A stretch of DNA of 64,000 bases from Escherichia coli (GCF_017348835.2 NZ_CP071375.1), one strand, 5' to 3'; numbered from the stretch's first letter, positions 23,996 through 26,900 are shown. Numbers are program-made.

Positions 23996-26900
23996 TAAGA
24001 GAATTGCATGAGCAGTAACTTCAGACATCAACTATTGAGTCTGTCGTTACTGGTTGGTATAGCGGCCCCCTGGGCCGCTTTTGCTCAGGCACCAATCAGT
24101 AGTGTCGGCTCAGGCTCGGTCGAAGACCGCGTCACTCAACTTGAGCGTATTTCTAATGCTCACAGCCAGCTTTTAACCCAACTCCAGCAACAACTCTCTG
24201 ATAATCAATCCGATATTGATTCCCTGCGTGGTCAGATTCAGGAAAATCAGTATCAACTGAATCAGGTCGTGGAGCGGCAAAAGCAGATCCTGTTGCAGAT
24301 CGACAGCCTCAGCAACGGTGGTGCAGCGGCGCAATCAACCAGCGGTGATCAAAGCGGTGCGGCGGCATCAACGACGCCGACAGCTGATGCTGGTACTGCG
24401 AATGCTGGCGCGCCGGTGAAAAGCGGTGATGCAAACACGGATTACAATGCAGCTATTGCGCTGGTGCAGGATAAATCCCGCCAGGATGACGCAATGGTGG
24501 CATTTCAGAATTTCATCAAAAATTACCCTGATTCAACTTACCTGCCAAACGCCAATTATTGGCTGGGTCAGTTAAACTACAACAAGGGTAAAAAAGATGA
24601 TGCGGCGTACTATTTTGCTTCGGTAGTGAAAAACTATCCGAAGTCACCAAAGGCTGCAGATGCGATGTTTAAAGTCGGCGTCATCATGCAGGACAAAGGT
24701 GACACCGCAAAAGCGAAAGCCGTATACCACCAGGTTATCAGTAAATACCCTGGTACTGATGGCGCTAAACAGGCACAAAAACGTCTGAACGCGATGTAAT
24801 GCATAACACACGACCAGAAGTCGCATTATTTCTGGTCGTGTCGTGCGAATCATAAGCAGTTGAGTGATCTACATCGAAATTTTTGTTGCGCTCAAGTCTG
24901 AAATCAGTAATATATGCCGCCGTTGCCACGGGATATCAAACAAACCGAAAGCAACGAAAAAGTGGGTCGTTAGCTCAGTTGGTAGAGCAGTTGACTTTTA
25001 ATCAATTGGTCGCAGGTTCGAATCCTGCACGACCCACCACTAACCTAGTTAGTTGTAGTATCCAGCGTAGTATCGGGTGATTAGCTCAGCTGGGAGAGCA
25101 CCTCCCTTACAAGGAGGGGGTCGGCGGTTCGATCCCGTCATCACCCACCACCGGGTCGTTAGCTCAGTTGGTAGAGCAGTTGACTTTTAATCAATTGGTC
25201 GCAGGTTCGAATCCTGCACGACCCACCATTAATTACGGTGGGTTCGGTGGAAGTAGTTTGTAGTATCCAACGCAGTATCGGGTGATTAGCTCAGTTGGTA
25301 GAGCAGTTGACTTTTAATCAATTGGTCGCAGGTTCGAATCCTGCACGACCCACCAATTTTAACATCAAACTCAGATGTTAAGCGTGAAGGATAACGTTGC
25401 GCCAGCAACGGCCCGTAGGGCGAGCGAAGCGAGTCATCCTGCACGACCCACCAATCTTAAAGATTGGCCCCGAGTAAAAATCTTTCAGGTAACACCCGTA
25501 TGGGTCGTTAGCTCAGTTGGTAGAGCAGTTGACTTTTAATCAATTGGTCGCAGGTTCGAATCCTGCACGACCCACCATCCTGAATGATTAAAGCAGCATA
25601 ATCCCGCAAGGGGTCGTTAGCTCAGTTGGTAGAGCAGTTGACTTTTAATCAATTGGTCGCAGGTTCGAATCCTGCACGACCCACCAATGTAAGAAAGCGC
25701 CCTAAAGGCGCTTTTTTGCTATTCAGGCATCCCTCAATTTAACTTTGTAAACCTGATGACATAGTCAGAGCTTACTGTGCAAGCAACTCTATGTCGGTGG
25801 AATTAGGCGTAAAATGACGCATCCTGCACATTAGGCGTAATTCGAGTGACTTTTCCCCACCATTCGACTATCTTGTTTAGCATATAAAACAAATTACACC
25901 GATAACAGCGAATATGACGCTTATGTCGGTTTTAACGTTAAGCCTGTAAAACGAGATGGTAAGATGAGCGTGATGTTTGATCCAGACACGGCGATTTATC
26001 CTTTCCCCCCGAAGCCGACGCCGTTAAGCATTGATGAAAAAGCGTATTACCGCGAGAAGATAAAACGTCTGCTAAAAGAACGTAATGCGGTGATGGTTGC
26101 CCATTACTATACCGATCCCGAAATTCAACAACTGGCAGAAGAAACCGGTGGCTGTATTTCTGATTCTCTGGAAATGGCGCGTTTCGGTGCAAAGCATCCC
26201 GCTTCTACGTTGTTAGTCGCTGGGGTGAGATTTATGGGAGAAACCGCCAAAATTCTCAGTCCGGAAAAAACAATTCTGATGCCGACACTTCAGGCTGAAT
26301 GTTCACTGGATCTCGGCTGCCCTGTTGAAGAATTTAACGCATTTTGCGATGCCCATCCCGATCATACTGTCGTCGTCTACGCCAACACTTCTGCTGCGGT
26401 AAAAGCGCGGGCAGATTGGGTGGTAACTTCAAGCATTGCCGTCGAACTTATTGATCATCTGGATAGTTTGGGTGAAAAAATCATCTGGGCACCCGACAAA
26501 CATCTGGGGCGTTACGTGCAAAAAAAGACGGGCGCAGACATTTTATGCTGGCAGGGTGCCTGCATTGTGCATGATGAGTTTAAGACTCAGGCGTTAACCC
26601 GCTTGCAAGAAGAATATCCGGATGCTGCCATACTGGTGCATCCAGAATCACCACAAGCTATTGTCGATATGGCGGATGCGGTCGGTTCCACCAGTCAACT
26701 GATCGCTGCTGCAAAAGCATTGCCTCATCAGAGGCTTATTGTGGCAACCGATCGGGGTATTTTCTACAAAATGCAGCAGGCGGTGCCAGATAAAGAGTTA
26801 CTGGAAGCACCAACCGCAGGTGAGGGCGCAACCTGTCGCAGCTGCGCGCATTGTCCGTGGATGGCCATGAATGGCCTTCAGGCCATCGCAGAGGCATTAG

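What the first reader, a model, noticed from the sequence alone, without database searches (positions are those of the whole stretch)
25356..25501. Orphan tRNA-Lys 3' fragment and one fewer tRNA gene than the K-12 operon
A 17-nt exact copy of the tRNA-Lys 3' end (TCCTGCACGACCCACCA) lies in the spacer without a tRNA body, and the operon contains six tRNA units rather than the seven of K-12. Together with the chimeric unit this indicates a recombinational rearrangement inside the tandem array. Duplicated tRNA 3' ends are also the signature left by integrase-mediated insertion or excision at tRNA genes.
Basis: seen in the sequence. Interest (0 to 1): 0.35.

Follow-up and report, generated by a model that had tools for sequence, protein, structure and literature searches.

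The report
Ordinary RtT spacer repeat, not scar
The stray copy of the tRNA-Lys 3' end is the normal tail of a known spacer repeat (RtT-type) that K-12 and about 75% of E. coli complete genomes carry at the same spot, and the missing tRNA gene comes from a separate, strain-private 79-bp deletion that fused valZ to lysY.

Summary
TCCTGCACGACCCACCA occurs six times, five in tRNAs and one orphan at 25437-25453. The operon has six tRNA units against seven in K-12.

The interpretation mostly fails. The orphan is the 3' end of a 98-nt RtT-type spacer module (25356-25453, Rfam RF00391). K-12 has the same module in the same 146-nt lysY-lysZ spacer, plus four more orphans in this operon. The full spacer is present in 4063 of 5426 complete E. 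coli genomes. K. pneumoniae has RtT units in the same four spacers. The window therefore has fewer orphans than K-12, through clean unit-length deletions of 100, 98, 99 and 156 nt.

The lost gene is a separate event: a 79-bp deletion between two TTAGCTCAG repeats fused valZ to lysY. It is the only difference from strain PE164 in the 2.5 kb aligned around the operon. It is found in none of 5426 genomes.

There is no integrase signature. Only 80 nt lie between the repeats, and phage and plasmid collections gave no att-like hit. The window's only annotated integrase belongs to a lambdoid prophage 26 kb away.

The same orphan design occurs after tRNA-Tyr, Arg and Pro genes.

Verdict: already known, low interest.

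The parts
24964..25039 (+). tRNA-Lys(UUU), the lysT position
   Evidence: ARAGORN. Rfam tRNA 79.2 bits. Collinear with K-12 lysT.
25075..25150 (+). tRNA-Val(UAC), the valT position. The 35-nt spacer before it lacks the 100-nt RtT unit that K-12 has there.
25153..25228 (+). tRNA-Lys(UUU), the lysW position. The 51-nt spacer after it lacks K-12's 98-nt RtT unit.
25280..25355 (+). Chimeric unit: the valZ 5' end (GGGTGA) fused to the lysY body. The anticodon is UUU. Two acceptor-stem pairs are broken (G5/G68 and A6/C67).
   Evidence: Rfam tRNA 68.0 bits with two non-standard pairs marked, against 79.2 for normal tRNA-Lys. Predicted fold -24.4 against -28.6 kcal/mol, with the acceptor stem disrupted. 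Alignment to PE164.
25286..25294 (+). TTAGCTCAG, the 9-bp microhomology that holds the junction of the 79-bp deletion
   Evidence: PE164 and F2_81 carry 79 extra bases here (TTAGCTCAG...GGGTCG), bounded by the same 9-mer. They are otherwise identical over 23544-26060, apart from 0 and 1 mismatch respectively.
25356..25453 (+). 98-nt RtT-type spacer module, short form: hairpin 25359-25381, closing helix P1, two conserved hairpins, a variable hairpin, and a tRNA-like 3' tail
   Evidence: Rfam RF00391, 54.4 bits against a gathering score of 45, ending exactly at 25453. The first 60 or so model positions align to the upstream tRNA body across a 44-nt insertion. Fold z = -3.55. Pair counts on alignment A2.
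25383..25392 (+). CGTGAAGGAT, the 5' strand of closing helix P1, complementary to the first 10 nt of the orphan fragment
   Evidence: Folds. Pair 11-72 is UA in Lys units, GC in Arg units and AU in the P. vulneris Arg unit.
25436..25453 (+). The 'orphan': an 18-nt exact copy of the tRNA-Lys 3' end, running from the last two T-loop bases through the T-stem 3' strand, acceptor 3' strand, discriminator and CCA
   Evidence: The same fragment is at the same place in K-12 (L001 1804-1821).
25454..25501 (+). Unique 48-nt remainder of the lysY-lysZ spacer
   Evidence: Identical in K-12. Part of the 181-nt query found full length in 4063 of 5426 genomes.
25502..25577 (+). tRNA-Lys(UUU), the lysZ position. 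The 33-nt spacer after it lacks K-12's 99-nt RtT unit.
25611..25686 (+). tRNA-Lys(UUU), the lysQ position
25689..25719 (+). Operon terminator hairpin with U run. K-12 has this duplicated around a fifth, 156-nt long-form RtT unit that is absent here.
   Evidence: Fold -19.2 kcal/mol, z = -5.19. K-12 comparison. A Rho-independent terminator of the lysT operon is described in PMC4176162.

Best explanation
The fragment at 25436-25453 is the built-in 3' end of an RtT-type spacer module (25356-25453). This is a known class of repeat in enterobacterial tRNA operons. Each unit ends with an exact 18-19-nt copy of the 3' end of the tRNA gene upstream of it.

The unit is transcribed inside the polycistronic lysT precursor. 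That the K-12 cluster is one transcript is shown in PMC4176162. That this unit is transcribed here is inferred.

Within the unit, the first 10 nt of the tRNA-derived fragment pair with an upstream complementary strand (CGUGAAGGAU) to close a small structured domain. ACCCACCA is left as a tRNA-like tail. This structure is supported by folding and by covariation.

The module is ancestral at this spacer. K-12, about 75% of complete E. coli genomes and K. pneumoniae all have it.

Because the tRNA 3' end and its copy are direct repeats about 98 nt apart, units are lost precisely by recombination or slippage between them (inferred mechanism). The window carries a compact allele that kept only this one unit. 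K-12's units after lysT, lysW, lysZ and the lysQ terminator are absent, as clean gaps of 100, 98, 99 and 156 nt.

The missing seventh gene has nothing to do with the orphan. A separate 79-bp deletion between the TTAGCTCAG sequences shared by valZ and lysY removed the valZ body, the CTC spacer and the lysY 5' end. It left a Val/Lys chimera with two acceptor-stem mismatches, which is probably poorly functional (inferred). That deletion is private to this genome.
For: - **Family match.** Rfam RF00391 reaches 54.4 bits (gathering score 45) and ends at the orphan's CCA.
- **K-12.** The lysT operon region of K-12 has 10 copies of the 17-mer: 5 in tRNA-Lys genes and 5 orphans. Four RtT matches lie above the gathering score and a fifth scores 38.5 bits.
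- **Window against K-12.** The order is the same, with five clean gaps of 100, 98, 79, 99 and 156 nt and 12 mismatches otherwise.
- **Spacer frequency.** The 146-nt spacer with the orphan is found full length in 4063 of 5426 E. coli genomes.
- **Copy number.** RtT-like cores number 1-11 per genome, median 5.
- **Outgroup.** K. pneumoniae has the same seven genes with RtT units in the same four spacers.
- **Closest genomes.** PE164 and F2_81 have seven tRNAs, compact spacers (35/2/51/3/146/33) and one orphan. Over 23544-26060 the only indel between them and the window is the 79-bp deletion bounded by TTAGCTCAG. Over 54 kb the window has 7 mismatches to PE164.
- **Generality.** Units after tRNA-Lys, Arg and Pro in many Enterobacterales, and after Tyr and Arg in K-12, each end in a copy of their own tRNA's 3' end.
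- **Structure.** 94.8% of cells are paired, against at most 47% for slid registers. Compensatory changes occur in the closing helix and in the variable hairpin.
Against: - The Rfam match passes the gathering score only because the first 60 or so model positions are aligned onto the upstream tRNA body across a 44-nt insertion. The unit is a short form, not a full-length RtT.
- No stable RNA of about 100 nt from this spacer is reported in wild-type K-12. Spacer probes detected only long precursors in RNase mutants (PMC4176162). A function for the unit as an RNA is therefore unproven.
- Units are dispensable: compact spacers are common.
- The recombination mechanism for unit loss is inferred from clean unit-length gaps, not observed.
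- The 79-bp deletion is seen in this one sequence only: 0 of 5426 genomes and 0 metagenome contigs.
Confidence: 0.88

Rival explanations
1. The duplicated tRNA-Lys 3' end is an attL/attR-type scar. An integrase-driven element inserted at, or excised from, a tRNA-Lys gene and left a displaced 3' fragment.
For: The copy starts in the T-loop and runs to CCA. From my own knowledge (Williams 2002, NAR), that is the extent typically duplicated by integrases that target the T-loop. Units show precise presence/absence polymorphism between strains.
Against: - Only 80 nt separate the repeats. They hold a conserved structured RNA core and no ORF.
- The same core occurs in tandem after Lys, Arg, Pro and Tyr tRNAs, each time with the cognate 3' end.
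- The unit is at the same spacer in K-12 and K. pneumoniae.
- Phage and plasmid collections gave only misfiled chromosomal copies or weak partial matches.
- The flanks cpoB and nadA are contiguous, as in K-12.
- The only integrase annotated in the PE164 counterpart of the window belongs to a lambdoid prophage by ybhC at about 51.2 kb.
Confidence: 0.02
2. The orphan is the remnant of a tRNA-Lys gene truncated by the same rearrangement that removed the seventh tRNA.
For: The fragment and the reduced gene count occur together next to the chimeric unit.
Against: - The sequence upstream of the fragment has no similarity to the tRNA-Lys body. It is the conserved RtT core.
- PE164 and F2_81 have all seven genes and the identical orphan.
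- K-12 has seven genes and five orphans.
- The 79 missing bases are fully accounted for by the valZ body, CTC and the lysY 5' end.
Confidence: 0.03
3. The six-gene count and the chimera are an assembly or consensus error in a repeat array, not a real allele. The true genome would have the PE164 seven-gene array. This concerns only the gene count and is compatible with the main explanation of the orphan.
For: - The exact junction is absent from 5426 complete E. coli genomes and from the metagenome contigs.
- The nearest relatives, which differ by 7 mismatches over 54 kb, lack it.
- Tandem tRNA arrays are hard to assemble (my own knowledge).
Against: - The junction lies in a 9-bp microhomology, as expected for a slipped-strand deletion. 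From my own knowledge, that is too short to be a typical de Bruijn graph mis-join.
- Analogous Val/Lys chimeras with another breakpoint (AGAGCA) exist in 15 complete genomes. They include a 14-genome group, mostly poultry isolates, listed from at least the USA and Japan, so such deletions do occur and are inherited.
Confidence: 0.2

Closest known systems
RtT RNA (Rfam RF00391; rttR of the E. coli tyrT-tyrV locus)
   Same: It lies in a tRNA operon, downstream of a tRNA. It shares the conserved core AACGUUGC-loop-GCAACGGCCCGNAGGGCGAG-hairpin-CGAGU(A/C)AUCC. It ends in an exact copy of the upstream tRNA's 3' end including CCA, and that copy pairs with an upstream complementary strand. It matches the Rfam model above the gathering score.
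   Different: The tyrT units are long forms of about 178 nt scoring 133-137 bits, and they end in the tRNA-Tyr 3' end. This unit is a 98-nt short form that starts right after the tRNA CCA, ends in the tRNA-Lys 3' end, and scores 54 bits only by borrowing the upstream tRNA's T-arm. From my own knowledge (Bosl and Kersten 1991), the tyrT unit yields a stable 171-nt RNA. No stable RNA is reported for the Lys spacer.
[quoted passage not shown]
   Same: Same flanks (cpoB, nadA), the same gene order, and the same 146-nt lysY-lysZ spacer with the same orphan (145/146 identical). About 99% identity in shared sequence.
   Different: The window lacks four of K-12's five RtT units, and valZ is fused to lysY.
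RtT-like units of the K-12 serV-argVYZQ operon
   Same: The design is the same. Units follow argV, argZ and argQ, each ending in a 19-nt copy of the tRNA-Arg 3' end. One compact 62-nt spacer after argY has no unit, mirroring the window's compact spacers.
   Different: The tRNA and the closing-helix sequence differ (GGGAGGAU/AUCCUCCC). The units measure 134 nt from the tRNA CCA to the orphan CCA. Rfam RF00391 does not detect them at E <= 0.001.
tRNA-gene att sites of integrative elements (attL/attR duplications)
   Same: A direct repeat of a tRNA 3' segment that begins in the T-loop.
   Different: There is no cargo and no integrase, the spacing is 80 nt, the interior is a conserved RNA-like sequence, and the unit is conserved in position across genera.

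Membership tests
RtT RNA (Rfam RF00391) | Scores at or above the family's gathering threshold with the curated covariance model | tested here: met
   54.4 bits against a gathering score of 45 at 25287-25453. Caveat: model positions 1 to about 60 are placed on the upstream tRNA across a 44-nt insertion, so only the 3' 65 nt or so is a true match.
RtT RNA (Rfam RF00391) | Lies within a tRNA operon, directly downstream of a tRNA gene on the same strand | tested here: met
   It starts at the base after the CCA of the unit at 25280-25355, inside the lysT operon.
RtT RNA (Rfam RF00391) | The 3' end repeats the 3' end of the upstream tRNA, including CCA | tested here: met
   An 18/18-nt copy at 25436-25453. 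The same holds for Tyr units, Arg units and Pro units.
RtT RNA (Rfam RF00391) | A closing helix between the tRNA-derived 3' segment and an upstream complementary strand, plus conserved internal hairpins | tested here: met
   Over 23 units, 94.8% of cells are paired, against at most 47% in slid registers. Pair 11-72 is UA, GC or AU, and pair 51-58 is GC, AU, UA or GU. Folds agree.
RtT RNA (Rfam RF00391) | Released from the precursor as a discrete stable RNA | not testable with these tools
   In K-12, spacer probes 8 and 9 showed only long precursors in RNase mutants (PMC4176162). There are no data for this strain.
Integrase att-site duplication at a tRNA gene | Direct repeats of the tRNA 3' end flank an inserted element that encodes, or once encoded, an integrase | tested here: not met
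   There are 80 nt between the repeats and no ORF. The flanks are contiguous as in K-12. The only annotated integrase is the lambdoid one at about 51.2-52.3 kb.
Integrase att-site duplication at a tRNA gene | The flanking sequence matches attP or the ends of known phages, plasmids or integrative elements | tested here: not met
   The phage collection gave only misfiled Salmonella chromosome contigs and one 51-bit partial hit. Plasmid hits were all rated non-mobilizable, and the full-length ones are Mb-sized records that look like mislabelled chromosomes.
Truncated tRNA pseudogene | Residual similarity to the tRNA body upstream of the retained 3' end | tested here: not met
   The upstream sequence is the RtT core shared with the Arg, Pro and Tyr units, not the tRNA-Lys body. 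ARAGORN calls nothing there.

The most novel reading that the evidence does not exclude
RtT modules may be mimics of the tRNA acceptor/T-arm 'minihelix' that co-evolve with whichever tRNA they follow.

In Tyr, Lys, Arg and, more weakly, Pro units, the 3' 18-19 nt equal the cognate tRNA 3' end. The 5' strand of the closing helix reads like the end of that tRNA's acceptor 5' strand fused to its T-stem 5' strand (GGGGAAGGAU, CGUGAAGGAU, GGGAGGAU). The conserved core sits where the T-loop would be.

That would imply one of two things. Either the core spreads by insertion targeted at the T-loop, or ongoing gene conversion from the tRNA keeps the copy identical. In support of conversion, all five K-12 copies are perfect while three of four in K. 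pneumoniae have decayed.

It would also suggest a role as a decoy or handle for enzymes that bind tRNA 3' ends. I found no paper in the held library describing this, but the older literature on tyrT is not held.
Probability: 0.15. Interest if true: 0.45.

Novelty: already known. Interest (0 to 1): 0.1.

Why it matters
It matters little for biology. It is useful for annotation: orphan tRNA 3' ends in enterobacterial tRNA operons are normal parts of RtT-type spacer repeats and should not be read as integration scars or as markers of recent rearrangement.

The lysT array is a copy-number hotspot. Core copies range from 1 to 11 per E. coli genome, tRNA counts differ between the arrays examined (seven in K-12 and PE164, six here and in two other strains), and Val/Lys fusions recur. 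Differences from K-12 are therefore expected.

The one strain-specific event is the 79-bp valZ-lysY fusion. It costs the cell one tRNA-Val(UAC) gene and probably one functional tRNA-Lys gene. It is worth checking against reads before it is believed.

Tried and rejected
- **Integrase scar.** I searched the 146-nt spacer against the phage and plasmid collections in distant mode. The matches gave no att-like site: misfiled chromosomal records, non-mobilizable plasmid records, or weak partial hits.
- **Exact chimera junction elsewhere.** A 101-nt junction query with a strict E-value against 5426 E. coli genomes gave no exact match, only 15 chimeras with a different breakpoint. A 40-nt exact pattern in metagenome contigs gave 0 hits.
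- **Whole-array megablast**. Piece-joining across repeats made the coverage counts unreliable. I replaced these with junction-spanning queries under strict E-values.
- **Genome-collection scan** for the core RACGGCCCGNAGGGCGAG. I used only hits next to tRNAs.
- **Literature.** The held library lacks the primary tyrT/RtT papers. Statements about them rest on my own knowledge.
- **Promoter/terminator scan.** The simple scan missed the operon terminator on the + strand, so I folded it directly.

Full report
**What is there**

Window 24964-25686 is the lysT tRNA operon, between cpoB and nadA. ARAGORN and Rfam find six tRNA units:

| Coordinates | Unit |
|---|---|
| 24964-25039 | Lys(UUU) |
| 25075-25150 | Val(UAC) |
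| 25153-25228 | Lys |
| 25280-25355 | begins GGGTGA like tRNA-Val, continues as tRNA-Lys |
| 25502-25577 | Lys |
| 25611-25686 | Lys |

The 17-mer TCCTGCACGACCCACCA occurs six times, against 0.00 expected from shuffles. Five copies are tRNA 3' ends and one, at 25437-25453, stands alone. The identity is 18 nt (ATCCTGCACGACCCACCA), or 20 nt counting the AT that follows CCA in the preceding unit. K-12 MG1655 has seven tRNAs here. Both parts of the observation are correct.

**The orphan is not unusual**

- Rfam RF00391 (RtT RNA) matches 25287-25453 at 54.4 bits (gathering score 45) and ends exactly at the orphan's CCA.
- The same 3-kb K-12 locus holds ten copies of the 17-mer: five in tRNA-Lys genes and five orphans. 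One orphan lies in each long spacer (after lysT, lysW, lysY and lysZ) and one lies after the lysQ terminator.
- Four of the K-12 units pass the RtT gathering score, and the fifth scores 38.5 bits.
- The window's orphan is the K-12 lysY-lysZ one. The spacer is 146 nt in both and differs at one base.
- A 181-nt query spanning the spacer, under an E-value limit that only a near full-length single alignment can pass, matched 4063 of 5426 complete E. coli genomes.

**How the window differs from K-12**

A global alignment gives the same order, 12 mismatches, and five clean gaps in the window of 100, 98, 79, 99 and 156 nt.

The 100-, 98- and 99-nt gaps are exactly one RtT unit each, measured from the base after a tRNA-Lys CCA to the orphan CCA. 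They leave spacers of 35, 51 and 33 nt. The 156-nt gap is the long-form unit together with one copy of the duplicated terminator.

K. pneumoniae has the same seven genes, with spacers of 125/2/149/3/146/133 nt and RtT units in the same four spacers. Citrobacter werkmanii and Pluralibacter gergoviae have a unit in the Lys-to-Val spacer. The K-12-like array with several units is therefore ancestral, and the window's compact array is derived by loss.

The losses are what recombination or slippage between the tRNA 3' end and its downstream copy would produce. That mechanism is inferred, not shown.

Compact or partly compact arrays are common. In 805 of 5426 genomes, at least 80% of the PE164 compact array aligns as one piece. 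Full-length examples include strain W46 and O55:H7 strain DEC5E. RtT-like cores number 1 to 11 per genome, with a median of 5.

**The missing gene**

The 8 kb downstream of the array is 100% identical to E. coli PE164 and F2_81, both from pigs. Over 54 kb the window has 7 mismatches to PE164.

Both strains have seven tRNAs, the same compact spacers and the same single orphan. Across window 23544-26060 the only difference from PE164 is a 79-base stretch present in PE164 (TTAGCTCAG...GGGTCG). It comprises the valZ body, the CTC spacer and the lysY 5' end, and it is bounded by the 9-bp repeat TTAGCTCAG. The six-gene count is thus one small deletion at a microhomology, unrelated to the orphan 81 nt downstream.

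The product pairs a Val acceptor 5' strand (GGGUGAU) with a Lys 3' strand (ACGACCC), which breaks pairs 5-68 and 6-67. Rfam scores it 68.0 bits against 79.2 for normal tRNA-Lys. The predicted fold is -24.4 against -28.6 kcal/mol, with the acceptor stem disrupted. Poor function is an inference.

The exact junction is in none of 5426 genomes and in no metagenome contig. Fifteen genomes carry Val/Lys chimeras with a different breakpoint, AGAGCA in the D-arm. B1S11 has it at valZ/lysY, and APEC O2-211 has it at valT/lysW. Thirteen further genomes gave near-identical alignments to APEC O2-211 but I did not inspect them. This group of 14 is mostly poultry isolates, listed from at least the USA and Japan. 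Such fusions therefore recur and are inherited. I still cannot exclude that this particular one is an assembly error. I put that at about 0.2.

**The integrase idea**

- The two repeats are 80 nt apart, and that interval is a conserved structured core without an ORF.
- Phage and plasmid searches returned misfiled chromosomal or non-mobilizable records and weak partial hits.
- cpoB and nadA flank the array as in K-12.
- The only integrase annotated in the PE164 counterpart of the window belongs to a lambdoid prophage next to ybhC, at about 51.2-52.3 kb.

**What the unit is**

A scan of one genome per species for the core RACGGCCCGNAGGGCGAG found units next to tRNA-Lys(UUU), tRNA-Arg(ACG) and tRNA-Pro(CGG/UGG). 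The hosts include Citrobacter, Enterobacter, Klebsiella, E. albertii, Pluralibacter, Pseudescherichia, Superficieibacter and Mixta. In most of these units the sequence 11-17 nt after the core is an exact 18-19-nt copy of the 3' end of that unit's own upstream tRNA. Several score 77-101 bits as RtT.

In K-12, the tyrT-tyrV locus has four RtT units (133-137 bits), each ending in the tRNA-Tyr 3' end. One of them is annotated rttR. The serV-argVYZQ operon has units after argV, argZ and argQ that end in the tRNA-Arg 3' end, and a compact 62-nt spacer after argY.

In an alignment of 23 Lys and Arg short-form units, a four-helix structure has 94.8% of cells paired, against at most 47% in slid registers. 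In the closing helix, the first 10 nt of the tRNA-derived fragment pair with an upstream strand. One pair is UA in Lys units, GC in Arg units and AU in the P. vulneris Arg unit, whose tRNA-derived fragment carries the matching substitution. A variable hairpin shows GC, AU, UA and GU.

The 'orphan' is therefore a structural part of the module. It forms half of the closing helix plus a single-stranded ACCCACCA tail.

Northern data from K-12 show that the cluster is one transcript cut by RNase P and RNase E. With spacer probes, only long precursors were seen, and only in RNase mutants (PMC4176162). A stable Lys-type RNA is unproven, and the many compact alleles show the units are dispensable.

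**Verdict**

The feature belongs to a curated family that some RefSeq records annotate at this locus as 'RtT sRNA'. Novelty: already known. Interest: low.

The least ordinary residue is the minihelix-like, tRNA-matched design of RtT units across four tRNA species. I report that as a low-probability novel reading.

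Noticed in passing
window 25280-25355: A chimeric tRNA unit: the valZ 5' end joined to the lysY body, with two acceptor-stem mismatches. It arose by a 79-bp deletion at the repeat TTAGCTCAG. It is absent from the near-identical strains PE164 and F2_81, from 5426 E. coli genomes and from the metagenome contigs. Fifteen other E. coli genomes carry Val/Lys chimeras with a different breakpoint (AGAGCA).
   Followed up: yes
L130 (K-12 serV-argVYZQ, NC_000913.3 2817500-2819500): RtT-like units, each ending in a 19-nt copy of the tRNA-Arg 3' end, follow argV, argZ and argQ but not argY, which has a 62-nt compact spacer. Rfam RF00391 does not detect them at E <= 0.001, so the curated model under-covers the short forms.
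   Followed up: partly
L126 (K. pneumoniae CP125156.1) against L001 (K-12): Three of the four Lys-type orphan ends in K. pneumoniae have decayed (…ACCCACCG, …CACTCCAATC, …ACCTACCA). All five in K-12 are 18/18 identical to the tRNA. This hints at gene conversion or selection keeping the copies identical in E. coli.
   Followed up: partly
L012, L018, L038, L028 and others: Long-form RtT units sit after the operon terminator and are followed by a second copy of the terminator. They contain a T-arm-like GCAGGTTYGA or GAGGTTCGA upstream of the core, as if the core were inserted in a T-loop. All four host tRNAs (Tyr, Lys, Arg, Pro) share AAUCCU at the T-loop/T-stem junction.
   Followed up: partly
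window ~51,190-64,000: A lambdoid prophage next to ybhC (int, xis, kil, cIII, ral, sieB, cI/cro/cII-like, nin, Q), mapped through the PE164 annotation. It carries an IS3-family insertion at about 53,094-54,307, with an Rfam ALIL pseudoknot at 53,375-53,491. The window differs from PE164 by an indel of about 6 kb at 54,350.
   Followed up: partly
window ~2,070-15,060: A block of about 13 kb between sucD and cydA, mapped through the PE164 annotation. It encodes methylaspartate mutase S/L/E, methylaspartate ammonia-lyase, an AtuA-like protein, DUF4387, a dicarboxylate symporter, class I fumarase, CobO and a LysR regulator. From my own knowledge of the K-12 map, this is not the K-12 arrangement.
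   Followed up: no
window 23,899-24,037: An Rfam CpoB/ybgF thermometer element (142 bits) upstream of cpoB.
   Followed up: no
L067 (Pseudescherichia vulneris) 467-542 and 670-745: The tRNA-Val here carries a Lys-type D-loop (TTGGTAGAGCA), and one tRNA-Lys copy has an altered T-loop (GAGCC). This is further natural mixing or variation between the adjacent Val and Lys genes.
   Followed up: no
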